This document shows, piece by piece, positions 3,569 through 43,339 of a DNA stretch of 64,000 nt (positions within the stretch are counted from its first letter, which is position 1; the number at the start of each line of letters is the position of its first letter). The position numbers were made by a program, and so were the translations under genes. The stretch comes from Leucoraja erinacea. Its lineage: Eukaryota. Location: contig NC_073386.1 of assembly GCF_028641065.1 (NCBI RefSeq), forward strand, positions 16,864,001 through 16,928,000, given 5' to 3'. The notes under the pieces were generated by a model, which was given only the letters and a program-made list of their open reading frames with translations, was not told the origin of the DNA and ran no database searches.

Positions 3569-9140
<5,572 letters not shown>

Positions 9141-16990: not shown

Positions 16991-17769
16991 ATGAGAATAT
17001 TCAATTGGAAACCGGATTTATGTCACAGAGTGGGTAGACACAAAATGCTGGTGTAAATCAGCGGGATCTTATAGCGGAGCAAGATAGGCTACTCCTGCTA
17101 AATACAATGGGCTGACGTGTAGTACGCTACGGAGGGGATCCTGGGCATTTTAGTAACCGGAGCCTACCTGACCCGACCCGACCCGACTCGCAGTGTAATC
17201 AATGAACAGTTTGTGTGTGTGATATAGGGTTAGATTCATCATTCTGTCAGTTCATACTTCTTGTCAAGAATAAAATTTGACTCTGGTAATTGTCTTTTTT
17301 AATATATTTTAAATCATTTATTTTTAAATGGCTCACAAGCAGTGTTTGAGTTGATTTTGTAGTAACCGGAACCGACCCGACTCGCAGGGTAATTGACATT
17401 GCGGGGGACGTTTTTGTGCGTGATGTTACATATGCTACATATTCATTGTAGCAGTCCCAACCTCCTGCACTACTTTGTATCAGGCACACTCACCACACAC
17501 ACACACACACACACTGTGATTAGGTATGTAAGCACTTTAGTATTACTACGCCACACAGACAAAGGAGCTGAATAAAGGAGTACAATAAGGCAACTGAAAC
17601 AACCTGAATTGTGTCGTTTATTATCAGGATATCAAACACGAAGACACAACATGGTGGCAGCGGTGACTTTCGAGTAAAAAACCGCGCTATTGTGAATCGC
17701 TATTGGGAATTAGGAACAGCGGCTGCAGAGAAATTGATTTTTTTTTGTGCACCCGCCTAACAACACAAG

Positions 17770-18372
17770 ATGGCGGCCTCCACAGCGGCTGTTGCCGCAG
17801 CAATGAACCTCCACCCTACGATGAACTGGGACGCCGATGACGTGGTGGAGGCGTTCAAGAAATTCAAACAAAAGAGCCAGCTGGCATTCAAAAGCTTCCT
17901 GAAAGGAACTACAGATGAAGAGAAGGTCAGTTATATTTTACTATGGCTCGGGGAGAAGGGTCTAGACATTTTTAACAGTTGGAGCTTAACAGAGCCCGAC
18001 TGCAATAATCCGGGAATAGTCCTTGAAAGGTTTGCGAACCATATGGAGCCCAAATCAAACCACAGAATCCATCGGTATGAGTTCCAAGGGCTAAGACAAG
18101 ACCCACAAGAAACAACCGACACTTTCCTGTCGAGACTAAGGAACGTGGCCAAGAAATGCAGATTTGGTGATGAAGATGACAGAATTGTCGACCAGCTAAT
18201 ATGGGGGTGCGCCCACCAAGAGGTCCAAAAGTCCCTAATAGGGAAAGACACCCTCAACCTAAAAGACGCCGTAGATGCTGCCAGAGCTTTCGAAGCCACA
18301 AGGAAACTCTGGAACAAATCGAAAAAAAAAACCTCACCAAAGCACCAGCCAGACTACAGAGACTATTACTGA
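17770..18372 (+). CDS. Gag (capsid-like) ORF of the LTR element, truncated by the internal deletion near 18300
   Basis: Gag-like motifs LLWLGEKGLDIF, RYEFQGLRQDPQETTDTFLSRLR, CRFG...IVDQLIWG typical of Gypsy gag. Confidence 0.8.
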   Translation: MAASTAAVAAAMNLHPTMNWDADDVVEAFKKFKQKSQLAFKSFLKGTTDEEKVSYILLWLGEKGLDIFNSWSLTEPDCNNPGIVLERFANHMEPKSNHRIHRYEFQGLRQDPQETTDTFLSRLRNVAKKCRFGDEDDRIVDQLIWGCAHQEVQKSLIGKDTLNLKDAVDAARAFEATRKLWNKSKKKTSPKHQPDYRDYY

Positions 18373-19886
18373 GGCTACAGCACTACGACTACAACATCAG
18401 ATACAAGCCAGGAAAAGACCTGCTGCTAGCTGACGCCCTATCCAGACTATCAACACATGACAAACAAGAGATGGAAGGGCTGAGCATAAAGATCCACCAC
18501 ATTGTGAGTGTGACAAGCGTGAAGCTGGAACAGATCAAAGAGGAAACAGCCAGAGATGAAGAACTCCAGCTCCTCACCCAAATGGTAATACAGGGGTGGC
18601 CAGAAAAGAGACAACAAGTTCACCCTCTCCTCCGCGAATACTGGACCATCCGTGATGATATTTCGGTAGAGAATGGAGTCCTGATGGCCGGATCACGAAT
18701 CATCATACCCAAGTCCATGCAAAAAGAAATCCTCGAAAAGATCCACCAGGGACACTTAGGAATGGAAAAGTGCAGACTCCGTGCTAAATCCGCTGTGTAC
18801 TGGATAGGCATGTACAAGGACATAGAAAAGCTGGTATCTACATGCCACATATGCCAAAAATACAGGAATTCACAACAGAAAGAGGAAATGACACCCAGTG
18901 ATATCCCAAGCCGGCCATGGCAAACCATCGGAGCAGACCTGTTCACAGAGAACCAGCAATGGTATTTGATTATGGCCTGCTACTACTCCAAATTCCCATT
19001 TGTGAGAAACGTAAAGGATTTGAAAGCTAAAACAATTGTGTCAATTGTTAGAGGGTTGTTTGCAGAGCAAGGAATACCTGAGCAGATCGTATGTGACAAT
19101 GGAACCCAATTCACATCTCGGGAATTCAGAGAGCTAGCCACCGAATACGGGTTCAAAATCACAACATCTTCACCACATTACCCAAAGGGCCATGGGTTTA
19201 TTGAAAGGCAAGTACAGACAGCCAAGAAAACACTAATAAAATGCCGAGAGGCAAAGGAGGATCCAAACCTGGCACTTTTATCCTTACGGGCAACTCCACT
19301 AAAGGCTGACATGAAGTCTCCTGCAGAAATGCTAAATGGCAGGAAATACAAAACCACCCTGCCAAGCAAAATCCAACCCCCTATCGACCAAGAAGAAACA
19401 AGGGCAAAATTGGCAGCTGCCCAGGAGGAGGGGCTGAAACAATACAACAAAAATGCACAGTACTTGCCTGAACTATTTCAAGGCCAAAACGTACATGCTC
19501 AGGATCCAACAACAAAGAAATGGACCCCAGCACAAATCACCAGCAGGGCTGGAACCCCAAAATCATATATCATAGAGACAGAACCGGGCAGGCAGTTGAG
19601 ACGAAACAGAATTCACATCCGCCCGACACCTGAAATGTCAACACCTGCAACTTCAAAGACAACACCAGCAACTCCTAGGACACCACCCACAGCAGCAGCA
19701 ACACCTACCATTGATGACAACACATTCTCACAAACTGCTACCAGTGAGTCATATAGTCAACCAGCACCAACCAATGGCCACAAAACAACTCAACAAGTTA
19801 CCAATACATCGAGTGCAACACTGCAGGCAACAACCAGATCTACTAGATCCAGGAGCAACATCTTACCCCCAGCGCGTTATCGCTAG
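18201..19886 (+). CDS. Pol remnant: RNase H C-terminus, integrase zinc finger and DDE integrase core; protease and RT absent
   Basis: RLQRLLLRLQHYDYNIRYKPGK...ADALSR (RNase H end); HQGH...CHIC zinc finger; PWQTIGADLF, IVCDNGTQF, GFIERQVQT catalytic D-D-E. No protease DTG or RT YxDD motif. Pol similarity starts at about 18305. Confidence 0.85.
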   Translation: MGVRPPRGPKVPNRERHPQPKRRRRCCQSFRSHKETLEQIEKKNLTKAPARLQRLLLRLQHYDYNIRYKPGKDLLLADALSRLSTHDKQEMEGLSIKIHHIVSVTSVKLEQIKEETARDEELQLLTQMVIQGWPEKRQQVHPLLREYWTIRDDISVENGVLMAGSRIIIPKSMQKEILEKIHQGHLGMEKCRLRAKSAVYWIGMYKDIEKLVSTCHICQKYRNSQQKEEMTPSDIPSRPWQTIGADLFTENQQWYLIMACYYSKFPFVRNVKDLKAKTIVSIVRGLFAEQGIPEQIVCDNGTQFTSREFRELATEYGFKITTSSPHYPKGHGFIERQVQTAKKTLIKCREAKEDPNLALLSLRATPLKADMKSPAEMLNGRKYKTTLPSKIQPPIDQEETRAKLAAAQEEGLKQYNKNAQYLPELFQGQNVHAQDPTTKKWTPAQITSRAGTPKSYIIETEPGRQLRRNRIHIRPTPEMSTPATSKTTPATPRTPPTAAATPTIDDNTFSQTATSESYSQPAPTNGHKTTQQVTNTSSATLQATTRSTRSRSNILPPARYR

Positions 19887-26044: not shown

Positions 26045-29000
26045 TTATCCATTCATTTTTCTTTCAAATACATGAATATGGCTTCCTGTTCGGCCCTCTG
26101 GCACATGAGTGTGAAAAAATGTTGCTACTTTTATGTAGCTTTTGGTCCTTAGGAATGGTTCAATGTTCTTTGAAGACAAAGAAGCAAATAATGAGGTTAG
26201 ATGATGCAAAAAACACAATAGACTCAACACTTTTTTAATCAACTTTACAATGATGTTAACAGGAATGTGTTCATAAATAAAAAGAAGCTACTCAATGCTT
26301 TGGTGGTCGTAAAGGTGGATTACTCCATAGAACTGGATGGGATTTATCCTAGACTGCTACAGGAGGCAAAATAAAGAGATTGCTGGGACGTTGTCTGTGA
26401 TTTTTAAATTTAGTCACAAGTCAGATACCATAAGACCATTAACACATAGGAGCATAGTTTAGCCATTCAACGTCATATCTGTTCTGCCATTCAAACATGG
26501 CTGTTCTATTACTCGCTCTCAACCCCATTTTCCTGCCTTCTCTCCATAACTTTTGTTGCCCTTACCGATCAAGATGACAACCAGATGGCTGGAGGACAGC
26601 AAAGGTGGTCCCCATTTTCAAGAAAGTCAGCAGAAAAGCCTGGCAACGAGAGACCTGCAAGTCTAACATCAGTGGTAGGGAAGGTATGGGAAATATTTTG
26701 ACGGAGAGCATTAGTGATCACTTGAAAAGACTGACTAATCAAAGACATTTTACATGGTTATATCATGGGCATATCCTGCATGACAAATTTGATTGAATTC
26801 CAACCGTTGAGTTCTAACCATTAATCTTTGGTTTCCCATTCCCCTACTACTATACTCTAATAGAAACACCAAACCAAATATTTTTCTAAATTTGAATAAT
26901 CTGGCAGGATTCTACAATGTCAATTTAGAATATTATAGTACTTCATCTTTATTATTGGGAAATACTGCTCATTGGCAAGACATGTAATGATAAACTGGGC
27001 AACCCACATCCTCTATAACACTGGCCAATTCAAGACAGGGACAAAAACAAGTGTGTGCATACCTGTTCCAAGACATTGAAAATTACGAGATGAGTGGGAA
27101 GGGAGGCCTGAGCAGAAAATCTTATGTTCAGCCACGTAAGGGGCTCCTTGAAAAATAAGTCAGCTTCATCAATGTAGGTATTGTTTCCACTCAGGTCCGG
27201 AGGGCATTCCAGAAAGTGCATTTTTATTGGGCAATGAACGTAACTGGCGAAGCAAGAAAGAACAAATATTTAAACATCTAATCATGCACAAATTGGAAGG
27301 AGTATTACTTCTTTATCTGATTAGTGATGTAATGACTTTTCCCAGTTGTGAAAAATACTTAAAGACCCATTCCCACCCACACTCTATTCTTGCTGCTACC
27401 ATTGGGAAGAAGGTACAGAAGCCTGAGAAAGGTTCAAGAACAGCTTCTTTAATCAACCATCAGGCTCTTGCACCACCTTGCATAACCCTTACCATGATAG
27501 TAAACCGAATAAGGGGTTGGCTATTTAGAACGAAAATGAGGGAAAACTTTTTCACCCAGAGTTGTGAATCTGTGGAATTATCTGCCTCAGAAGGCAGTGG
27601 AGGCCAATTCTCTGGATGCTTTCAAGAGAGAGTTAGATAGAGCTCTTAAAGATAGCAGAGTCAGGGGATATGGGGAGAAGGCAGGAACAGGGTACTGATT
27701 GTGGATGATCAGCCATGATCACAGTGAATGGCGGTGCTGGCTCGAAGGGCCGAACAGCCTACTCCTGCACCTATTGTCTATTTTTTTATTGACAATGGAC
27801 TTTGTGTAAGGTTGCACCAGTTACTTCAACTCGCATTGTTCTGGTTTGGTTAACTTGTACAACCGGTAATTTATTGTATATTTATTTGTTGTGTTGTTGC
27901 ATTCATGTGCCTGTAAAGCTGCAGCAAGTAAGAATTTCATTGTTCCAGTACCTGTACTAAAAACGCTCACCATTCTTAACTTGAATTTACATACTTAGCA
28001 TACCTGTAGAATGGTGTTGAATGGCAAGGCATCAGAAAGAACAAAGATGGCTCTTCTTTCTCCAGCAGGTTGTCCGTGCAGAGTTTCTGAGCATATTGCA
28101 TTACATCTAGTGTCCCACGCTGATGAATTAATCCAGTATATAGAACTAGGCACACGTTGGATAGAAACAGAAAACTGACTGCTCGTTTCTTCCAAATTTT
28201 TAAATTAGCGAGTGAATAGCCTGACACAAATTGGTGGGTTGGGTGTGGGGAGAAAAGGGAAAAGTAAACATTTAATACGTGTTAATGATTGTTTAAAAAA
28301 TAAATAAATAAATCACATTTTCTTATAGAAAGAGGAGTAGAAAATATAAAGGCCCACCAAACATCCACACAGAGATCTTTATGGACAGCTTTTTGAAGTC
28401 AGCTATCAAGGCCAAGCATGCGGAATTGATCACATTATCAGGGCCATTATTTATTTAAATTGTTCATCCAATCTATACTTTTCAAAACCACATTCTATTT
28501 GTGGAAAACTTTTAAAGTTAATTGTTTTTATAAATGAACAGAAGTTACACAAGTGGTTATTTTCTCAAGGTAAAATTATCAACAGAATACATACCACAAA
28601 ATACCATGCAGATGGGCATTGCCGGATAAATAAATCTGAATTCTTTATGGCTTATGAAGCTGTAATAAAGGACAGTTTTGTAACTGATAGGCATTCTGAA
28701 TGGCAGGAAATAAAATAGCATGTGGATGAACTTAATAAGGCTGTATAACAGTGCATCAACAGTACATCTCCTGGTATATCATCTCCTATTAATCCCTCAA
28801 AAAATATCCTAGATATATTTGGGTTATTAACTACAGTTGGTGGCATTTTATGACCATATTTTCTATATTAAAACAGTGACTATATTCACAACCTGCATTT
28901 TTGGTACCAAACCTTTTTTTTAAATTTTTGTTGGTATCAAATCCTGTTTGGGATTCCCAAGGTCATGCAAGGCTTCTTAGTGGTGGATTACTCCAGTAAA

Positions 29001-32000
29001 AATCTGAAGTGGATGGTGAGAGATAAATGGTTTGTATAACTATGTTTAGGAACTATGTGGAATTCTCTGCCACAGAAGGAAGTGGAGGCCAATTCACTGG
29101 ATATTTCAAGAGATTGTTATATTTTGCTCTTAGGGCTAACGGAATCAAGGGATTTGGAAGAAAGAAGGAACAGGGTACTGATTTTCGATGATCAGCCATG
29201 GCCTACTCCTGCACCTATTTTCTATGTTTCTTTAATGGTTCTGGTTTTAGTTGTCACTTAGTCACTTTTCTTTACACGTGGAGGTACGCACCTATATACA
29301 ATAATTGTCCAAAGAACTGCAATTAATAAAATTCTGTTCTTCTTGGGCACCAAAAGACATCCATGAATGAAGAATGGCAGATGTGTTCCCATGATGACAG
29401 GAAATCCTTGAGTGAAGTACCAGTGCCAAGAATGAGAGCCATAGAATGATCCCAAGTTCTGAATTACATTGAACCTGAGGAAATTCCACTGAACGACAAC
29501 CCACTGAAATGTGTGAGGGAATGAGACAGGGGGAGGGAGAAGAGGGGAAAATCAAAGATTTACAGGAATTAATTGTTAGTATTAGCATATTACATATAAT
29601 GCTTACAGAATAATACAAGATATATACTAACAAGGAGGAATGAACTCAAATATCCAAGGTCACCCCACCCCAGTATATTTTCTACTCAAAATTGGTTAAA
29701 TTAACATCTCAGTTTATATTTCTTGTCCTTTTTATTTCCGAATACAAGTTCATTCATCCCTTTAAGGCAAATCTAAGCAGGGGTGCATAGTTTTATTTTC
29801 ACAGATGCAAATTAATATAGTTAGGATAAATAAATTAATGAGACAATGTACTATAATCCTCTCTCTATTTACCCAGTTTACTCACAGCCAGATTAAAGGC
29901 AGGAGTAAAGGAACCTATTTCTATAGCCTCGTTAAATCGTACCATTTCACCAAAAGACATTTCGCTTAAAAAAAACCAAGAATAATTTATTTAGCTGGAA
30001 ATTAAAAAAAATATACAAGTTTATTAAAACAATACATTGCAGTGCATTAATTTTTTTCCAAAGGAGGTGCAGGTCATTAAAATTAAGAGACTGATTAGCT
30101 ACTCAGGAACACCTCAAATTCCAACACAAATCTATTTTTTTCAAAAGCATGAAAAATGCCCACCTCACCATAAAATATTCGGTCAACGATCAGTGAAAAC
30201 CCCAGTGACAAGCATCTGCAAAATGAACATAGTAACAATGGGAAAAAAAACATTTTGGGGGAAAATACATTTATTAGGCCAATCTTAAAACCAATGGCCA
30301 CATTGGCCTGAAGTCCTCGACAGGCAGTGCATACTGTTTTTGTACATCACCGTACAAAATCATAACATGGGGTGCAACAGCAGAATTATATATGTCCTAT
30401 AAACCATGGTAACCAGCTGCTGAGCGTTTCTGCAAAGTAATAGTATTTCTGGAAGATTGGTGACAGGGACCCGCCAACAAAACGTACACAATGTGCAATG
30501 GGAATAGTTCCCTTCACAAGATGTTTAACATTGTAAATATTCCACAGGGGAATCAGAAGTACTCTTCTATTTCTTAGGATTTCTGCTACCAGCAATGAGA
30601 AATAATTACATGTCCTAGGTAACCATCCTTCTGGACATTTGCAAGAGGATAAAAGACTTGGACCTGCATTGAGGAATTTGATTTTGTGTGTAAAAATCCA
30701 GACTTGTTTAGCTCTGTAACTAATGATTTCAGAGGTCACCTCTTAGGATAAGTCTAATTCAAAGCTGGGTAAGATTCCCGCAAAGAGTAGGCCATATAAG
30801 TGTGGGAGGCGGAATCCTAAGTACAACTGCAGAGTGAATAATTTCCATCAAATCAAAAATCTATATGTAGTAAGGAACTGCAGATGCTGGTTTATTCCGA
30901 AGATAGACACAAAATGCTGGAGTAATTCAGCGGGTCTGCACCCCCCACTCCACCCCCGTTGTCCAACGAGTTCTACTGTTCGCATCCTTATATCTCTCCC
31001 GGTAGCACATCTTCCCCAGCCAACAATAGGCGATTATGAACTCCACCGTTCCTGAGGTAATTGGTTACCAGCCCCAATTTGTTGTCCTTTTCTCACCTCC
31101 AGTTTCCCACACCACCCCTCAACCCCCACCTCTATCTTTCGTTCTGAAGAAGGGTTCTGACCCAAAACGTCACCTATTCCTTTTCTCCAGAGATGCTGCC
31201 TGACCCGCTGCATTACTCCAGCAATATGTTTCTGTCTTAAGTCAAAAATCAAATTTAGTTTGGAGATACAGCACGGAAACAAGTCCTTCGGACCACCAAG
31301 TCCACACTGACCATCGATCACCGGTTCACAGTAGTTCTTTGTTATCTCACTTTCTCATCCACTCCCTACACTGAAATAGTAAAGTGTTTCTTGTGCTGCT
31401 ATTTAGAGACCAATTAACCAACAAACAAGCACATCTTTGCGGTGTGGGAGGAAACCCACACAGTCACAGGGAGAACATGCAAACTCCACATAGATAGCAC
31501 CAAGGTCAGGATTGAACTCAGGTCTCAGGCAATGTGAGGCACCCGGCGCTACCTGTTGAGCCACTATGCAGCTGGTGGAACTTAATAGGTCAAGTTCCTG
31601 GACATTCCAGCAGAGGGTACAGTTCCTACATAGGAGTGACCCAAAGACAGGATTTGAAATAGTAAAGAGTTGCCTGGGCTGCTATTGTTACAGATCGTTC
31701 CTTGCTCCTCCATTGTCACTGGTACTTCTATCCAACAGCACAGGGTACCACCTTCTCCAGGATATTTAGGATGAGGCAATAAATGTATAACCATATCAGT
31801 GACACCTACATAAATAGATTAGAAAAAATATCTTCACTGAAGTATCACTTTGCATATCTGGGCTACACTCAATTAATTTCAGCTATACCAGAAATAATTC
31901 AGAGCCATGAACATTGGATAGTGAGGAAATTAAGTAGGGAAACAATTAGTGTGTCTCAAGTACACTGGAAATCAGTGAGACCATGTCAACTTTTCAACTC

Positions 32001-35000
32001 CCTTTACCTACATTAAAAAGAGACTGAAGAAGGGTTCTGACCTGAAACACACATATTCTTTTTTCCAGAGATGCTATCTGACTTGCTGAATTACTCCAAC
32101 ATTTTGTATCTATCTTATAACTCCCGTGACTTGTCCTTACAGGCTTTTTTAAATAATGGCATAACATTATTCCAGTCTACCAATACCTCATGCGTGACTA
32201 ACAATTAGTTAATAACAATTTTATAAATATCTCTACCAAAAGTTAATCCTTCCATTCGAATCAAGCTTCTCCCATCATGAGATTTTACCATTGATCATTT
32301 CGTCAACAACTCTTGTAATGTTTATCCTTTTCATTTCCAGAATAAGCACTGATCTTATCACGAATGCACTTTTAATGTCTTAGCAGTGAAATCATTTTGT
32401 TTTGTTACAGTATTCAACAGCAAAAAAGACAGAATGGGCTCTTGTGTATAATGTGCCTCATAATGTGTCTCAAATCGTAGGTGTCCGAACGATATGAAGG
32501 GAACTCCTCCCTTCTCTTTACATACCCAGCTGGTAGACATTTGTACAAGAGCAGATCCAGTTTCTTCGCTTCTTGCCAGAAATGAGAAAACAACAGTGGC
32601 AGCCAAAGAATGACTGCAGTGGGACGCACAACAAATGCAAACGCAGTCAAAGCGAGATATTTCGAACTGTGAATAGAAAAATACAAAATCAGATGCAGGA
32701 GACTTACCCAAAGCAGCCTCAAAATTCTTTCACAAATATAAAAAGCATTACTTTAGCCTTATCCCATCTATCAGCATTCGATATTGCTTCCCTATTCAAA
32801 TTTATTAAGGTCCCATCTTGCTAGATGAACTCCACTGTTCAATCATAATTTACAGATGGGGTAGCACAACGATTAAGCTGTGTAGAAAGGAACTGCAGAT
32901 GCTGGTCTATACCGACGATGGACACAATGTGCTGGAGTAACTCAGTGTGTCAGGCAGCACCTCTGGCATTTAAACCAAAATTAGAATAATCGAACATTTT
33001 CCTGACCTGCTTCCAGTCTTTGTACCCTGAAGAGGGTAGTAATAAAATATAAAACTAGTTAGAACAGCTTCCATGCTATTTGTAATAGTTCGCGTACTGC
33101 AATACCATGTGAACCAGGAACACAGTTGAGAGAAGTACTAGAAGAAATAAACAAAACAAAAAATTAATATTCATCAAATTCACAGTCACTTTCTACACAC
33201 CCAAATATTTTGTTTTTTCTTAAAATTGGCAAGACACCTATGGCAAGCTTTAAACATAATCTGCAAATATTACGAGTTGCCATCCATTCATCTGGTACAT
33301 AAAAGTAACTTAAATCTGCAATGTTGTTAAATAGAATAAATTATTCAATGAAATCTGAAACCAGAAATGTTAATACCATAGTCATCTACCCCCTTTGATT
33401 TGATAGTGCATTGCAAAAATGTTGACGTATTCGTAATAATCCTGTTAAAGAAAGGGGTAAATGAAACAGCACTAGTGAATGCTCCTAAACAGTATGTCCC
33501 TCTTGAATAATTCATTGAAATGGCAATGAATTACAAATTCATACCCATTTCTATCTCACTTTTGGTTTGGTAATAGTTTTATTAGCGTTCATAGCACACA
33601 ATCAGTTAGAATTTGCTTTAATTTTTCTAATACATGGTTCCAAAAGTTTGTCAGTTTGTCCAAAGAATAAGTGCCCTCACATTATAATTTGGTTGTTATG
33701 CCAAGAACCATAGATACAATCTACATCAGGGTAGCGGAGCAAGTAGTGGTTGTATATCATAGCTTCAGTCATTTTGGTTGCATCCTGACCTCCATTGTAG
33801 AAACAAGGAACTGCAGATGCTGGCTTATTTTAAAAAAGGCACAAAGGAGTAACTCAGCGGGTCAGGCAGTATCTCTGGAGAACACAGAGAGGTGACGTTT
33901 CGGGTCAGGATTCTTCTTCAGGCTTATTCTGGGGGCGAGCGGAGGGGAGTGGCAAAACAAAGTGTGGCAGGTAATAGATGAACAAAAGCAAGGTGAGGTT
34001 TTGATAGACAGATGGTTGGACAAAGGCCAGAGATGAAAAAAGGTGCAAGACAAAAGGATTGAAGAGATGTGAATTGTTATGTTGGAGAATACATTGTGTT
34101 GAAAAGGGAGGGAAGAAATAGGCTGTGAGCCCAGGTGGGGCAAAGGGGAGGGGTGAGGGAGGAAAAGGGGGGAGCATATTGTTAGATAATTCAATGTTCG
34201 TCGGGCTGCGAGACAGGATGATCGTCAGGCTGTGGCTATCCCCCAGCTGCCGGCTTGGCTCACCCGCCACAGAACCTGAAAACCAATCCTGGCCCCTGCT
34301 CGTCAACCAGAGAGTGCAGGGAGTGGCCATGGCGGAGATAACAAAGGGCCAGTAAGTGGGTCTTTGTGCGCCCTCAAGGTCAACTGCAGGAGGCGCCCCT
34401 GGGGCACAAAAGCTGAGGGTGGCTGGGCGAGGAGAGGGACAACAGTTCGCTGGACGATCAATATTGAGCCAACAGCTGGAGCCCCTGCTGCCAGGACAAC
34501 AGGCCTTTATGGCTATCTGTAGCATGGACTTTGAAAATGGTGCAAAATCCTGCTGTCTCTTGCACACGGTCTCAATGGGCTATTTCTATCCACTTTGCAT
34601 TTGATCTAGGATTGTGCTTCAGTAATAATTTACTGAAATTATTATTATTTACAGAGCCAGCATGGACCCGATGGGCCAAATGTCACTTTCTATGTCAGAA
34701 GGAAATACTGAGTCATCAAGTACTTTTTCCATAGAAATTCCTCTACGTTCAGCATTTTTGATTCTCACACACAAGCTGGATTCATCAGGATTTTTTTCTA
34801 CATCAATAATAAGAAAATAAAAATATGCAAACAGCTTACCACCCACTTTGCAACCTCTTCATTTGCCTGTTTTTTTACTACGCAGTATAATGTTACATCT
34901 GCCAGTGCTGCCAGAAAAGACTGGGCCAGTCGAGGAACCCAGATCTGCAAAACACAATCCATGTTTACTGACAGTTTATACCAGAGGGCACATTTCTGAT

Positions 35001-38000
35001 GCAAATTGTAATTTGTTTATTGTCGTGTGCACCGAGGTACAGTGAAAAGCTTTTGTTGCATGCTAACCAGTCAGCGGAAAGTCAATACATGATTACAAAT
35101 GAGCCATCCACAGTGTGCAGATATATGAATCTTAATGAGTAGGAAGGAACTGCAGATGGTGGTTTACGCCAAAGATAGACACAAAATGATGTAGTAACTC
35201 AACTAGGCAGGCAGCATCTCAGGAAAGAAGGAATGAGTGACAATTCTGTTTTCTGTTCGACACCCTTCTTCAGACTGAGAGTCAGGGACTAGAGATATGG
35301 AATAGTAAGATGTGAAAACGCGAGATCAAAGGGGACGAAGCTCAAGGAAAATGAAAAATGGATCAAAGTCAGCTGATGGGGAAGGGGATACTTAATGAGG
35401 GTCACCCTACCCTGGTCTTATTTCTGCTCTCTCACACCATTCGTGCAAATAACTACATAGAAAGATGTGAAAACTGCACTGCTAGAAAATTGATACCAGG
35501 TACAAATGGGACCTTCTGCATATAGTTTGAATTATTTCAATCCTCGGTATCTTGCAGAGCATGGTCCAATTTAACCATATATAATAACCATATAACAATT
35601 ACAGCACGGAAACAGGCCATCTCGACCCTTCTAGTCCGTGCCGAACACATAATCTCCCCTAGTCCCATATACCTGCGCTGAGACCATAACCCTCCATTCC
35701 CTTCCCATCCATATAACTATCCAATTTATTTTTAAATGATAAAAACGAACCTGCCTCCACCACCTTCACTGGAAACTCATTCCACACAGCTACCACTCTC
35801 TGAGTAAAGAAGTTCCCCCTCATGTTACCCCTAAACTTCAGTCCCTTAATTCTCATGTCATGTCCCCTTGTTTGAATCTTCCCTACTCTCAGTGGGAAAA
35901 GCTTTTCCACGTCAACTCTGTCTATCCCTCTCATCATTTTAAAAACCTCTATCAAGTCCCCCCTTAACCTTCTGCGCTCCAAAGAATAAAGCCCTAACTT
36001 GTTCAACCTTTCTCTGTACCTTAGTTGCTGAAACCCAGGCAACATTCTATTTTGTTGACATCCTTCCTATAATTAGGCGACCAATTTGTGCTTTAAAGAT
36101 TTCAGTTAGATACATAGAAAATAGGTGCAGGAGTAGGCCATTCGGCACTTTGAGCCGGCACCGCCATTCATTGTGATCATGGCTAATCATCCACAATCAG
36201 TACCCCGTTTCTGCCTACTCCCCATATCCCTTGATTCCACTAGCCCTAAGAGCTCTATCTAACTCTCTTTTGAATGCATCCAGTGAATTGGCCTCCACTG
36301 CCTTCTGTGACAGAGAAATTCCACAAATTCACAACTCTCTAGGTGAAAAAGTTTTTCCTCATATCAGTTCTAAATGGTCTACCACTTATTCTTAAACTGT
36401 GGTCCCTGGTTCTGGGCTCCCCCAACCACGGGAACATTTTTCCTGCATCTACCCTGTCCAATCCCTTAATAATTTTATATGTTTCTATAAGATCCCCTCT
36501 CATCCTCCTAAATTCCAGTGAATACAAGCCCAGTCGTTCCATTCGTTCATCATATGACAGTCCCGCCATCCCGGGAATTCACCTTGTGAACTTATGCTGC
36601 GCAATACTCCAGGTGTGGTCTCACCAGGGCCCTGTACAACTGCAGAAGGATCTCTTTGCTTCTATACTCAAATCCTCTTGTTATGAAGGCCAACATACCT
36701 TATGTTAGCTTTCTTCACTGCCTACTATACCTGCATGCTTACTTTCCATGACTGATGTACAAGGACACACAGGTCTTGTTGCACTTCCCCTTTTCTTAAT
36801 CTGACCCATTCAGATAATAATCTGCCTTCTTGTTCTTGCCACCAAATATTCATATTATACTACATCTACCATGCATTGCCCACTCACCCAACCTATCCAA
36901 GTCACCCTGCATCCTCTTCATAGCTTACACTGTCACCCAGCTTTGTGTCATCTGCAAATTTGCTAATGTTACTTTTAACTCCTTCATCTAAATCATTAAT
37001 AAATATTGTAAATAGCTGCGGTCCCAGTACTGAGCCTTGCGGCACCCTACTAGTCACTACCTGCCATTCTGAAACGGACCCGTTAATTCCTACTCTTTGT
37101 TTCCTGTCTGCCAACCAATTTTTTATCCATGTCAATGCCCTACCACCAATACCATGTGCTCTAATTTTGCCCACTAATCTGCCGTGTGGGACCTTATCAA
37201 ATGTTTTCTGAATGTCCAGATACACTACATCCACTGGCTCTCCCTTATTCATTTTACATTACATCCTCAAAAAATTCTAGAAGATTAGTCAAGCAAGATT
37301 TTCCCTTCGTAAATCCATGCTGACTTGTACCGATCCTGTTACCGCTATCCAAATACGCCACTATTACATCTTTATTAATTGACTCCAGCATCTTCTCCAG
37401 ATGTCAGGCTAACTGGTCCATAATTCCCTGCTTTTTTCCACCTTCCTTTCTTAAAAAGTGGGATAACATTAGCTCCCCTCCAATTCTCAGGAACTGATCC
37501 AGTATCTATAGAACATTGGAAAATGATCACCAATGCATCCTCAATTTCTAGAGCCACCTCCTTGAGTACACCAGGATGTAGACCACCAGGCCCGAGAGAT
37601 TTATCAGCCTTCAGTCTCTTCAGTCTACCTAACACCATTTCCTGACTAATGTGAATTTCCTTCAGTTCCTCCGTCACACTAGAACCCCTGTCCCCCAGTA
37701 CATCTGGGAGATTGGTTCTGTCTTACTTAGTGAAGACAGAACCAAAGTATCTGTTCAACTCGTCTGCCATTTCCTTGTTCCCCATTATAAATTCACCTGT
37801 TTCTGTCTTCAAGGGAACCACATTTGTCTTAACTAATCTTTTCCTTCTCACATACCTAAAGAAGCTTTTACTATCCTCCTTTATATTCTTCGCTACCTTA
37901 CCTTTGTACTCCTTCCTTGCTCCCCATATTGCCTTTTTAGTTACCCTCTGTTGTTCTTTAAAAGTGTCCCAATCCTCTGGCTGCCCGCTCATCTTTTCTG

Positions 38001-41000
38001 TTATACATCTTCTCTTTTAGTTTTATACTGTCCTTGACTTCCCTTATCACCCAAGATTGCCTCTTACTTCCCTTAGAATATTTCCTCCTCTTTGGAGTGA
38101 AATGATCTTGCAACTTCTGGATAATTCCCAGAAGTTCCTGCCATTGCTGTTCCACCATCATCCCTGCTAGGGTGCCTTTCCAGTCAACTTTGGCCAGCTC
38201 CTCCCTCATGCCTCCATAGTCCCCTTTGATCGACTGTAATACTGACACTTCTGATTTTACCTTCTCCCTCTCAAATTACAGATTAAAACTTATCATATTA
38301 TGGTCACTACCTCCTAATGGTTCCTTTACCTTGAGTTCGCTTATCAAATCCGGTTCATTACACAACACCAAATCCAGAATTGCCTTCTCCCTGGTCAGCT
38401 CCAGTACAAACTGCTCTAAGGATCCATCTCGGAGCTCTCTGCAAACTCCCTTTCTTGGGGTCCAGTACATAACTAATTTTCCCGTCTACCGGCATATTGA
38501 AATCTCCCATAACCACCGTAGCATTACCTTTGCTACATGCCAATTTTAACTCCTGATGCAACTTGCATCCTCTATCCAGGCTATTGTTTGGGGGCTGTAG
38601 ATAACTCCTATTGGAGTCTTTTTGCCCTTACAATTTCTCAGTTCTATCCACATTGACTACATCTTCTGATTCTATGTCACCCCTCGCAAAGGACTGAATT
38701 TCATTCCTTACCAACAGAGCTACCCCACCCCCTCTGCCCACCCGTCAGTCTTTTAGATAGGACCTATAACCCTGAATATTCAGTTCCCAGCTCCGATCCT
38801 CTTGCCGTCATGTCTCTGTAATTCCCGCAACATCAAAACTACCAATCTCTGAGCCCCAACCCTATCCACTTCATTTCTTATACTTCGCGCATTCATATCT
38901 AACACTTTTAATTTGGTATTCATCTCCCCTCTCACACCGGTTCCTATTTCACCTGACCTTACTCTCTTAACCCTTCTTGAACTTTCCATCCCATTAATTG
39001 GAGTGTCTTTCGTAGCTTTTACTGTACTCTCTTTCCCTTTAACTCCATCCTTATACTTCCCCTTTGACGCTCGGCCCCTCCCCCCACCGCTATTTAGTTT
39101 AAAATGTTCTAAATCTTAATGTCTCAAGCATGGCGGCAGACAGAAAAAAAAAATCAAACAATACCCTGACCACTGCACTTGTCTAAGCTTTGAAGCACAG
39201 TGTAAAGAGGAAAGTGGAAGGTGAAACAGAATGTTCAGGTTAAATGTCTTGCAATGGTGATGCTTTTAAATTAATGTTCAACTTATATCCATCCTTGATT
39301 TGTTTTAATGAGAATAATTAAGTGACAACTGGCAAAATAATGCAACTGGCAAAAGAACTAGAAGCAAAACAAAGGAACTGTATTTTCAAACTAAACCAAT
39401 AATTTGTTGCGATCTGGAATGTGTTGCCTGACAGGGAGTGGAGAATGAATCAATGTCAATATTCAATGTGGATTTAATAATTTTCTGGAGAAAATAAATA
39501 TTAATATAAGCAATGAACAAGAATAGGACTAATTGCATAATTTGGCAAAAGTACTGGGGCAGGCGGAATGGGCCCAATGGCTCCTCCGACACTGTGTCAT
39601 TCACTACATTGATCCAATCAGGAGAAATACAGATAGGTCTCCAAATTGAATGATAGTTTTGCCAATAGGTTTCCCTGTATTCAATAATATAAATCTCATT
39701 TGAGATGTGTCTGATTAGTCAAAAGCAACTGTTTTATTCTTACCAGCAGTTGTACTGTATCCTTCTTGAATATTTGCAACAATTTATAGAAGCTTGCAAA
39801 AATCAATGGGTAGGTGTAGCCTCGGAGCTTTTCTTTCCATTCCCAGGTTAAATAACCATACTTGAGAAAGTTAAGAATATTATAAAAATAATGATATTGA
39901 TCATCAAAACATGAGCACGACAAACATGAATTAAGAGCAGGAAAATTAGGGCACTCGACCCTTTAGGTTTTAAGGCAGCAGTAGATTGATATTTTTTTAA
40001 GCAAGGTGAAAGATTATCATAGTTCGATGGAAACGTGGAGCAAGGTTACTTTCATATCAGCCTTCATCTTTTTAAATGACCAAGCATGCATGAGGGGCCC
40101 TGCTCCTGATTTGTATGTTCCAATCTACAGAAAAATTGCTTTCACCAAAGAACTGAGGAATTTGGTGTACGTTTAAGAAGGAACTGCAGATGCTGGAAAA
40201 TCTAAGGTAGACAAAAATGCTGGAGAAACTCAGCGGCTGAGGCAGCATCTATGGAGCGAAGGAAATATGGTTCAGTTTTTAATCTCACGTGATGATCATA
40301 TAAGTAATGCACCTCGACAAGATGCAAAATATGTGCAAAATCCCTCGCGTTCAAACAATTGGCATATTTGTGATGAAGAACCAAAACTTTTTGTTTTCCA
40401 TTATGCATTTAGTTAGTAAACCCAAAGGATATTTGAAGACCATGTTGTGAGCAACTTCGAGCGTCTGCCAGTACTCATCTGGAACAAAGCTAGTCTGGAC
40501 CAAAAGGCAGTTCACAGACCTTAAAGCTACTGAGAATATAATTAAATAGGTGTTTGGACCAAATAATCCTGTTGTTAAAAAAAAGACAGAAAAAAGACAA
40601 TTACAAAATATATAAAGCAGCAAAATAAATAAATCAATCCGTCCAGATGTGTTTATCCAATGGAAACAGATCTACTCCAGTCATTCCAGAGCTTGAATTA
40701 TTTAAAGAGTGAATATCCCATTACAAGTATTCATTTAGGATACTGCTCATAACCCCACACTCCACGTGTAAATTACCCTTTTGGTTTGGGAGGGAACCTA
40801 CTCTTTCCTCAGCTACTTTCTGGCAATGTTACTATTAACTGGAAAAACATCATTGTGACTAATTGGCTGACATTGAGCACACATGATGTAGGGGGTATAA
40901 TCAGTATGTTCAAGGATGATAAAAATTGGCGGAGCTGTCAATAGTATTGAAGATTACAGGATGGTGACAATAAGTCAGTGAAATGGGCTGAAAAATGGCA

Positions 41001-42096
41001 GACAGAAGTTTAATCTGAATAAACACAACATTTTAGCACTAATGAGATTAGGACATACATCACGAATTGCAGGGCCCTCGGGAGTACTGAGGAACAGAGA
41101 CCTTAGTGTGCATGTACAACAACTCTTGAAGTTGGATGTACATGTAGATAATGTGATTAAGGCATAAGGGTTAGTGGCTTTCATTAATCAGGGTACTTAA
41201 TGCATAAACAGGTTTTGCTCCAACTCTATAAAATACTAGTCAGATCTCAGCTGGAGTACTACCTACTATCTGTAAAATGCCATAGTGCTGGAGAGAGCAC
41301 CAGAGGAAATTCCACATGATTCTGCCTGAATGCATCATTTCAATTGCAAGGACATTCAAGACAGAATAATTTTGTTTTTTGGGCAGCGGACCACCTTAAG
41401 AAGAGAAGACATGAATGAGATATATACAATTATAAGGAGTATAGCTAGGGTAAACTGCAGAAACTCAGATCCATATCTGAGGCAGGCAAAACTAAAGTCT
41501 GTGTTAGGGTATGGGGATTGGGGTAAGAGATTTAGGGGGGATCTGAATGCTACTTTTTTTTTTAAACCTAGAGAGTGGCAAATACCTTGAATGCACTACC
41601 CTACAGTTGTGATGATAGCAGGGTCGCGACTGCATTTTAGAAGTGCTTAGGTAAGCACTTACATCGCCTAGGTTCAGTCGGCTCGCAGCCAAGTGCTAAA
41701 GGGATGCGATTAACACTGCAAGATGCCCAGTGGTCAGCCTGGAAGTGGTGGTCTATTTCAATGGTGTATCAGTAAGAACATCAGTAAGAACATTCCCCTT
41801 TTGGTTGTGAACAAAAAAACGAATAGAAATAAAATACATAAATAAAAACAGAAAACGTTGGAAGTGCACCACACGTCAGGTGCAATGTGGGAACAGAAGT
41901 AGTTATAATTTGCAGAGAGCTGCAGTGAAGTGAACACAGGATAATACACCGAACTATCTGCACAACCTGTACCTCGTCCCTGCTCAGAGTTGGAGCATTC
42001 TGCAGCATACAGCGTCGATTTTCTTTTTCTCAGTCTGACGGGCTCTGAAGCAGCGGACCGCCGGGCCCGAAAGAAACTGTTCCTGAGCTTCTCCAT
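26045..42096 (-). CDS. PIGB: GPI mannosyltransferase 3, 12 coding exons, 534 aa
   Basis: Exons (minus): 42096-41973, 40568-40433, 39861-39744, 34944-34840, 33137-33007, 32666-32526, 30215-30164, 29503-29292, 28659-28595, 28220-28004, 27243-27063, 26167-26045 (1605 nt). Motifs [54 protein letters not shown]. An in-frame upstream ATG at 42195 could extend the N-terminus. Intron 2 is U12-type. Confidence 0.96.
35575..36085 (-). mobile_element. CR1-clade LINE 3' fragment (second subfamily)
   Basis: [15 protein letters not shown]...[12 protein letters not shown]; near-identical relatives at 20850-21410 and 53670-54000. Confidence 0.88.
36115..39102 (-). mobile_element. CR1-clade LINE, degenerate ORF2 (endonuclease and RT) plus 3' tail, in PIGB intron 3
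   Basis: Frameshifted ORF pieces: [22 protein letters not shown]...GGSDHN (APE), [17 protein letters not shown]...VPQGSVLGP...KFADDTK (RT), [12 protein letters not shown] (C-terminus). Confidence 0.92.
39862..40432 (-). other. U12-type (minor spliceosome) intron 2 of PIGB, apparent AT-AA termini
   Basis: 5' splice site ATATCCTTT starting at 40432; branch-site-like TTCTTAAC at 39877-39870; in-frame junction TTC AA|G TAT GGT (F-K-Y-G) needs the intron to end ...TCTCAA. Confidence 0.85.
40860..41750 (+). mobile_element. Old, degenerate CR1-like LINE fragment in PIGB intron 1 (similar remnants at 13280-14290, 24550-24900, 26270-26800, 42750-43300, 56850-57350)
   Basis: Decayed RT/C-terminal motifs (atcagtatgttcaaggatgataaaaattgg, gagaccttagtgtgcatgtac, ctctataaaatactagtcagatctcagctggagtact). 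Boundaries approximate. Confidence 0.65.
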
Positions 42097-42320
42097 GCTG
42101 ACTCCTGCTCTCCATTCAGCGCCTCTTCCCTCGGCTTCCGGACCCCGCCGCCGTCCTCTCCAGCGCGCAGGTGCTGGGCCCGGGGGAGGCGCCATCTCCG
42201 CTGTCGGCCGGGCGGCTCCTCCTGCTGGGCCGGGTAGGCGGCGCCCTCGGTCAGGGCCATGCAGCCCAAAGATCCTAAAGCAGAGCTCCGCTATAGGATC
42301 GTTGATGCAGGCCGCTCCTG
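42040..42320 (-). promoter_or_regulatory. CpG island over PIGB exon 1 and promoter
   Basis: High GC and CpG density around the start codons at 42096 and 42195. Confidence 0.65.
42267..42304. mobile_element. 38-bp palindromic mini-element at the PIGB 5' end
   Basis: CAAAGATCCTAAAGCAGAG|CTCCGCTATAGGATCGTTG flanked by ATGCAGCC / ATGCAGGC. Confidence 0.7.
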
Positions 42321-43339
42321 AGCACGACAGTTCTCTCTCATCTGCTCTCTCGTCCCACTATAACCATTTCGAGCTGAATGAATTAAAACACATTTAAACG
42401 ATTACAATCCCAAATAGGTTTGAGCTCCCTAGTCTTTACTCTAAAACAGAGGCTTCATAGGCAATGGACAGAACGCATTTGGTGTTTTGTGGATACTGGA
42501 GCGTTTATAAAGCTGTAAGCTCAGTCGACTCAGTCGAAATCGTCACCCATTCCTTCTCACTAGAGATGCTGCCTGGCCCACTGAGTTACTACAGCATGTT
42601 GTGTATCTTCGGTTTAAACCAGCATCTGCAGTTCCTCCCTGCACCAATATCTGAGGAAGGATGCGCTGGCGCTGGCGCTGGAGAGGGTCCAGAGACGGTT
42701 TACGAGAACGATGCAGAAATGACTGGGTCAACATGTAACATATGGTCTGTACTCGTTGGAGTTTAGATGAATGGGGGCGGGCGGGAGGGAAGTCATTGAA
42801 ATGTACAGAATAGTGAAAGGCTTGGATAGAGTGGATGTAGATAGGATGTTTTCACTAGTTGGAGAGTCTAGGTCAAAACCTCACCATCAAATGATGTTGT
42901 TTTAGGAAGTACATGAGGAGGGATTTCTTTAGGCAGAGGTTGGTGAATTTGTGGAATTCTTTGCCACAAAAGTCTGTGGAGGCCAAGTCTGGATACTTTT
43001 AATAATAATAATAATAATAATCTTTATTTATATAGCACTTTTCAACAAAACCAGTATTTGAACCAAAGTGCTTTACAGAGATTGATTAAATTAATTGAAC
43101 AGATCAAATGCCAATATATCCATACAAAACAAAAAAGAGAAAAAAGGCAGAAATAGATAAATTCTTGATTAGTACAGGCGTCAGAGGTTATGGGGAGAAG
43201 GCAGGAGAATGGGATTGAGAGGGAGAGATAGATCAGCCATGATTGGATGGGGGAATAGACTCGATGGGCCGAATGGCCTAATTCAGCTCCTATCACTCAT
43301 GACCTTGTGAAAGACTACAAATCCCATGATGCTGCTTCT

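What the first reader, a model, noticed from the sequence alone, without database searches (positions are those of the whole stretch)
39862..40432. PIGB intron 2 is a U12 intron that needs a rare AT-AA boundary, with a frame-breaking AG one base downstream
Seen: on the minus strand exon 2 ends ...GTC TTC AA followed by the U12 donor ATATCCTTT; the intron ends TTCTTAAC-TTTCTCAAG-TATGGT. The conserved F-(K/N)-Y-G-Y-L-T-W frame survives only if splicing is after CAA (AA|G TAT GGT). Using the adjacent AG gives AAT ATG GTT ATT TAA, an immediate stop. There is no AC at the expected position. Established: U12 3' ends are set mainly by branch-point distance and tolerate non-canonical dinucleotides. 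Inference: either a natural AT-AA intron or a built-in AA/AG competition that could tune GPI-anchor synthesis through nonsense-mediated decay.
Basis: partly seen in the sequence, partly recalled or inferred. Interest (0 to 1): 0.7.

Follow-up and report, generated by a model that had tools for sequence, protein, structure and literature searches.

The report
Skate copy of known AT-AA intron
The second intron of a skate gene for a GPI-anchor enzyme (PIGB) is cut out at the rare ends AT...AA, likely by the minor spliceosome, but the same human intron is already catalogued with the same ends and no use of the frame-breaking AG next door was seen, so this is an ordinary conserved intron rather than a new switch.

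Summary
Observation confirmed. Minus-strand intron 40432-39862 (571 nt) of PIGB starts ATATCCTTT, carries TTCTTAAC and ends CAA|G. RNA contigs of 3 of 3 contig runs join exactly 40433 to 39861 (AT-AA); none shows the AG joint, but contigs drop rare forms and the one raw-read run did not cover the exons. DNA contigs of 4 of 4 runs (four organisms) match the acceptor, so it is no assembly error. It is not new: human PIGB intron 2 is catalogued as U12 AT-AA, with the same 9-nt branch-to-end spacing, and is retained when CENATAC or ZRSR2 is lost. AT-AA is the commonest non-canonical minor terminus in animals. The AA|G layout also has human precedents (ABHD18, THOC2). The AG is likely a poor rival: it has A at -3, whereas 21 of 21 human AT-AA/AT-AG rows seen have a pyrimidine there. 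The NMD-switch idea has no support and was not quantifiable here. The scan noted this intron before in a shark and a ray genome.

The parts
26045..42195 (-). PIGB (GPI mannosyltransferase 3), 12 coding exons, 569 aa
   Evidence: exact match to P0001; Pfam PF03901 E 2.6e-112; single locus in the genome for these exons
40433..40568 (-). exon 2, ends GTC TTC AA (phase 2 junction in the Lys codon)
   Evidence: RNA contigs end their match at 40433
39862..40432 (-). intron 2, 571 nt, U12-type, AT...AA
   Evidence: joint 39861-40433 skipping 571 in X15, X19, X16
40424..40432 (-). U12 5' splice site ATATCCTTT
   Evidence: consensus RTATCCTTT in PMC1635337
39870..39877 (-). predicted U12 branch site TTCTTAAC (adenosines 39872, 39871)
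   Evidence: sequence; same place as the human CTCCTTAAT, 9 nt from the second A to the intron end in both; unchanged in 4 of 4 DNA runs; lariat not mapped
39862..39864 (-). used acceptor CAA
39861..39863 (-). adjacent AAG, frame-breaking candidate acceptor, use not seen
   Evidence: 125-aa product; no joint skipping 572
39744..39861 (-). exon 3, begins G TAT GGT
39848..39850 (-). TAA that would end the AG-spliced frame, 104 nt before the end of exon 3 with eight more junctions behind
39847..39848 (-). in-frame AC 15 nt into exon 3, candidate minor acceptor (would drop YGYLT)
   Evidence: a stingray RefSeq isoform (P0142, Hypanus sabinus X2) lacks exactly these five residues; not seen in RNA here
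40171..40267 (.). multi-copy short interspersed repeat inside the intron

Best explanation
This is the skate orthologue of the known human PIGB AT-AA intron: the intron is removed at AT...AA, likely by the minor spliceosome, giving the full-length enzyme, and the AG one base downstream is likely an unused by-product of the Lys codon AA|G. Shown: the ends (RNA), the bases (DNA of four organisms), the human orthologue's ends and its dependence on CENATAC and ZRSR2 (papers). Inferred: U11/U12 binds the donor and TTCTTAAC; the second step takes the first Y-A-N at workable distance, CAA, because an intron starting with A tolerates any last base while AAG lacks the -3 pyrimidine and AT-AG pairs are disfavoured; the AA end arose from an older AT-AC intron before sharks and bony vertebrates split; any rare slip to AG (+1) or AT (+4) would be cleared by NMD as noise. 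If the intron limits PIGB output, it likely does so by slow splicing and retention, as in human.
For:: 3 of 3 contig runs (three studies, two organisms) join 39861-40433; X15 and X19 have 0 other letters in both exon pieces; 4 of 4 DNA runs span the acceptor in one contig with no difference between 39835 and 39957; human PIGB 862-nt intron listed ATAA, U12_ATAC, 372 reads in 14 tissues, plus a +4 AT acceptor with 16 reads; the skate has AT at the same +4 offset; human row AT_AA, donor TTCAA|ATATCCTTT, acceptor CCTTAAT GTTAC TAA|TTATGG; retention rises 0.29 to 0.76 on CENATAC depletion (padj 2e-16) and 0.20 to 0.60 with ZRSR2 mutation (padj 2e-7).: -3 is a pyrimidine in 10 of 10 AT_AA and 11 of 11 AT_AG rows shown; 2 of those 10 AT_AA rows are AA|G; 8 of 10 mis-spliced protein models that read through the intron end have N (AA|Y) there, four with the same L-N-x-x-N spacing as skate L-N-F-L-K; 4 AT-AC loci read T as control; 4 of 57 metagenome loci have a U12 AT-AC intron at this position.
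Against: No junction reads were counted: contigs hide rare forms, and NMD would hide AG products further. U12 dependence and the branch point were not tested in skate. 2 of the 10 read-through models (both rat) show C, not N. Distance alone would favour AG slightly. A 2026 preprint lists a PIGB AT-AC 3' site in human without saying which, so more than one acceptor is annotated there. Human databases hold more AT-AG than AT-AA introns (15 against 6), so AT-AG as such is workable.
Confidence: 0.9

Rival explanations
1. Regulated AA/AG competition: elasmobranchs use the AG in a share of transcripts, sending them to NMD and so tuning GPI-anchor synthesis.
For: AG is 10-11 nt from the branch adenosines, nearer the reported 11-13 nt optimum than AA; its product has a stop 104 nt before the next junction; Lys (AA|R) stands at the junction in 23 of 23 elasmobranch records; U12 3' site choice is described as error-prone; human PIGB has a minor out-of-frame acceptor (16 against 372 reads).
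Against: 0 of 3 contig runs show it; AAG lacks the -3 pyrimidine seen in 21 of 21 human rows; AT-AG is described as disfavoured; human keeps AT-AA with no AG beside it; Lys may be AA|A in other species, whose DNA I could not see; Lys also occurs in 8 of 129 non-elasmobranch records.
Confidence: 0.05
2. The weak AT-AA end is kept by selection as a rheostat acting through intron retention, not through acceptor choice.
For: Human basal retention 0.20-0.31 in three control sets and mRNA log2 change -1.57 after 48 h of CENATAC loss; AA and its spacing appear conserved from skate to human; the retained skate intron stops the frame at 148 aa.
Against: Conservation may reflect only the short branch distance and the need to keep frame; no skate retention figure; A-type minor introns in general show raised retention, so this is not special to AA.
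Confidence: 0.25
3. Assembly error: the true acceptor is AC or has an extra base.
For: One other base of the intron (39958) differs from all four DNA runs, so the window is not free of private differences.
Against: 4 of 4 DNA runs from four organisms, depth 22-39, agree at 39860-39864; human has AA too.
Confidence: 0.01
4. The major spliceosome uses an in-frame GT-AG junction instead (for example ATG|GTCTTC at 40440 to the AG, dropping V-F-K).
For: 6 of 12 GT sites scanned give an open frame with this AG; human PIGB is listed with cryptic 5' and 3' events (CAT5, CAT8).
Against: All 3 contig runs keep the full exon ends; 0 of 183 proteins show the H-x-M-Y-G deletion.
Confidence: 0.02

Closest known systems
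Human PIGB intron 2 (hg38 chr15:55320411-55321272; hg19 chr15:55612608-55613470), U12 A-type, AT-AA (PMC4176328, PMC8280824, PMC6717393 supplements)
   Same: Same gene, codon position and phase; donor TTCAA|ATATCCTTT; AA end; 9 nt from the second branch A to the end; AT at +4
   Different: 862 against 571 nt; human ends TAA|T (Asn), skate CAA|G (Lys), so only the skate has an AG at +1; human has an AC 3 nt upstream, the skate does not
Human AT-AA minor introns followed by G: ABHD18/C4orf29 (357 nt, TTCAA|GATG) and THOC2 (CATAA|GTCC)
   Same: AT-AA used although an AG lies one base downstream (159 and 322 reads)
   Different: Other genes; both are listed for a subset of transcripts; I did not check whether their AG is used or breaks frame
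AT-AA subclass of A-type (AT-AN) minor introns (MSH3, RASGRP4 and others)
   Same: Ends and signals; 823 conserved animal introns, 1.117 percent, ahead of AT-AT 701 and AT-AG 658
   Different: Nothing found

Membership tests
U12-type (minor) intron | 5' splice site RTATCCTTT at the intron start | tested here: met
U12-type (minor) intron | branch site near TTCCTTRAY close to the 3' end | tested here: met
   TTCTTAAC 9-10 nt from the end, core CTTAAC intact, same place as in human; by sequence only
U12-type (minor) intron | removed from the RNA at those ends | tested here: met
   3 of 3 contig runs
U12-type (minor) intron | splicing depends on U11/U12/U4atac/U6atac machinery | not testable with these tools
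   shown in print for the human orthologue only
AT-AA subclass | terminal dinucleotides AT and AA in genome and transcript | tested here: met
Orthologue of human PIGB intron 2 | same gene, position and phase | tested here: met
   one locus for these exons in the genome; gene order not examined
Regulated AS-NMD switch | unproductive junction is used in RNA | tested here: inconclusive
   absent from 3 of 3 contig runs, which cannot show rare forms; raw-read run without exon cover
Regulated AS-NMD switch | product has a premature stop more than 50 nt before a junction | tested here: met
   104 nt; rule as stated in PMC6717393
Regulated AS-NMD switch | use varies with tissue or signal and rises on NMD block | not testable with these tools
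   no countable reads
Regulated AS-NMD switch | competing site conserved wherever the intron end is | tested here: not met
   human AA|T has no AG; AG conserved only among the four close relatives laid

The most novel reading that the evidence does not exclude
In sharks and rays the Asn-to-Lys change put an AG one base behind an ancient AT-AA acceptor, and the minor spliceosome now slips to it in a tissue-dependent share of transcripts that NMD hides, making a one-nucleotide switch on GPI-anchor synthesis.
Probability: 0.05. Interest if true: 0.5.

Novelty: already known. Interest (0 to 1): 0.1.

Why it matters
Little as a discovery. It extends a catalogued human AT-AA intron to cartilaginous fish, implying the odd end has lasted over 400 million years (date recalled). 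The skate sequence is a handy natural test of how the minor spliceosome ranks CAA against an adjacent AAG, and the junction is a common trap for gene predictors (10 of 161 protein models are wrong or variant here). If the AG switch were real it would be a rare case of regulated one-base acceptor choice by the minor spliceosome.

Tried and rejected
Raw-read run X22 (about 6 in 100 read) laid almost only repeat reads and no exon cover, so no AA/AG count. The run search listed no holder on record as RNA; the three contig runs are RNA by guess, and X16 is marked probably DNA, though their spliced joints show RNA origin. A search of short proteins (27 hits) found no AG-frame product and no elasmobranch fragment; weak. 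Motif counts alone are at chance. The metagenome scan gave no locus I could name as a vertebrate, so shark and chimaera intron ends were not seen. Rfam found nothing at 39600-42600 above gathering score. PDB gave one distant mannosyltransferase that does not cover the junction. I first took human PIGB to be AT-AC from a preprint; rejected after the supplement rows. Dietrich 2005 and Levine and Durbin 2001 are not held; their results are taken second-hand. Searches for a paper on the shark or skate intron: PIGB + minor intron (1 hit), PIGB + U12 + shark (0 hits), PIGB/U12/minor intron/AT-AA (9 hits); main texts only. Supplements not seen: file 1 of PMC4176328, file 13 of PMC8280824, all of the bioRxiv preprint (which may name the PIGB AT-AC site).

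Full report
Observation. The sequence is as described. The gene is PIGB: twelve exons between 42195 and 26045 translate exactly to RefSeq XP_055497541.1 of the little skate (Pfam PF03901), and the exon stretch has one locus in the genome. Ten of eleven introns are GT-AG. Intron 2 (40432-39862, 571 nt) begins ATATCCTTT and ends TTCTTAAC TTTCTCAA. Of nine junction placements that give the same protein, only this one starts with a U12 donor. Cutting one base later, after AAG, gives N-M-V-I-stop at 125 aa, 104 nt before the next junction. The motifs alone are at chance level in 64 kb; their position at the spliced joint is what counts.

RNA and DNA. Four runs were laid on 39700-40600. Three contig runs (X15, X19, X16; three studies, two organisms) each hold one contig joining 39861 to 40433, skipping 571 with ends AT...AA; X15 and X19 match both exons without a difference, X16 with four. 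No 572-nt joint was listed (14 lesser joints were not shown). The fourth, a raw-read run, did not cover the exons, so no ratio could be measured. Four DNA runs of four organisms were laid on 39700-40160; each spans the acceptor, three over the whole stretch and one from 39703, with 1 to 8 other letters, none between 39835 and 39957. One of the four may be the window's own sample.

Relatives. All 23 elasmobranch records examined have Lys at the junction (22 K-Y-G, one K-W-E); among 129 other records with standard spacing the residue is N 83, G 10, S 10, K 8, R 7, H 6, D 5. Ten of 161 models carry extra residues at the junction; eight show N before Y-G, which is what an intron ending in AA gives when read through, and four (bat, two lizards by name or likeness, a frog) repeat the L-N-x-x-N spacing of the skate's L-N-F-L-K, that is branch CTTAAC, six bases, AA; two rat models show C and do not fit. 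As control, four metagenome loci with an AT-AC U12 intron at the same position read T. Of 57 loci, 4 have the U12 AT-AC form and 13 a GT-AG intron there; most of the rest lack the intron. Their organisms are unknown. Inference: an old AT-AC intron became AT-AA before jawed vertebrates split. This rests on predicted models, not on vertebrate DNA.

Literature. PMC4176328 (passages, supplement rows) lists human PIGB, 862 nt, as ATAA U12 with 372 reads in 14 tissues and a +4 ATAT form with 16 reads, and states that a 5' A can splice to any 3' base with a preference for C. PMC8280824 (passages, supplement rows) gives the human ends, with the same 9-nt spacing, and shows retention rising on CENATAC depletion (0.29 to 0.76) and ZRSR2 mutation (0.20 to 0.60); in patient cells the rise (0.31 to 0.51) missed significance (padj 0.065). 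PMC6717393 (passages, supplement rows) lists PIGB as a minor-intron gene in mouse and human with cryptic events. PMC10639083 (passages, supplement rows): AT-AA is the commonest non-canonical minor end in animals, 823 introns. PMC3584512 (passages): optimum distance 11-13 nt, AT-AG disfavoured, 3' choice error-prone. PMC1557818, PMC1635337, PMC13602164 (passages) give AT-AA examples and counts. PMC7367187, PMC1874599, PMC11347168, PMC8283771 (passages) added nothing decisive. The preprint 10.64898/2026.10.16.759739 (passages, section 8) names a PIGB AT-AC site without coordinates in the text seen; the human AC 3 nt upstream would add one Asn, as in the chimpanzee model P0079, so alternative AC acceptors exist there (inference).

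Mechanism. Shown: removal at AT...AA. Inferred: U11/U12 recognition, and choice of CAA over AAG. Distance does not decide it (9-10 against 10-11 nt). The -3 base likely does: in the rows shown (11 of 16 and 11 of 53 places; one place was a match in another column), 10 of 10 AT-AA and 11 of 11 AT-AG human introns have a pyrimidine at -3, which CAA has and AAG lacks. Two of the ten AT-AA rows (ABHD18, THOC2) are followed by G, so the AA|G layout is not special to the skate. Slips to +1 or +4 would be NMD substrates; the human +4 form at about 4 in 100 reads shows the scale of such noise. If this intron throttles PIGB, retention is the likelier route.

Verdict. A true but ordinary member of the AT-AA subclass, orthologous to a catalogued and functionally tested human intron, and already implied by the RefSeq skate model. 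I found no paper on the cartilaginous-fish copy. Two earlier notes of this scan reached the same reading in a shark and a ray; they are not independent support, but they pointed me to two papers that I checked. The AG/NMD switch is unsupported and untested at low frequency (about 0.05). Interest 0.1.

Noticed in passing
window 39847-39848 (-): In-frame AC 15 nt into exon 3; the Hypanus sabinus isoform X2 model (P0142) lacks exactly YGYLT, as use of this site would give. Not seen in skate RNA contigs.
   Followed up: partly
window 41967-41973 (-): PIGB exon 1 seems to have two donors 6 nt apart; isoforms X1 and X2 differ by two residues in both Leucoraja and Amblyraja models.
   Followed up: partly
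window 39958: All four DNA runs read G where the window has A (+ strand): a private allele or a base error in the intron, 96 nt from the acceptor.
   Followed up: no
window 40171-40267: About 100-nt interspersed repeat with many copies in the genome, abundant in RNA runs.
   Followed up: partly
window 3569-8482 (-): Exons of an RsmB/F-type RNA methyltransferase gene (PF01189, E 1e-5, below the curated cut-off); looks like NSUN4 (name recalled, not tested).
   Followed up: partly
window 17761-19886 (+): LTR-retroelement-like ORFs with integrase zinc-binding and core domains.
   Followed up: partly
L006, L024, L026, L027; L007, L031, L041: The same PIGB intron position is U12 AT-AC in four unnamed eukaryote contigs and GT-AG in thirteen; three of the GT-AG donors begin GTAT or GTACC, possibly converted U12 introns. 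L024 and L026 are two PIGB-like copies on one contig.
   Followed up: no
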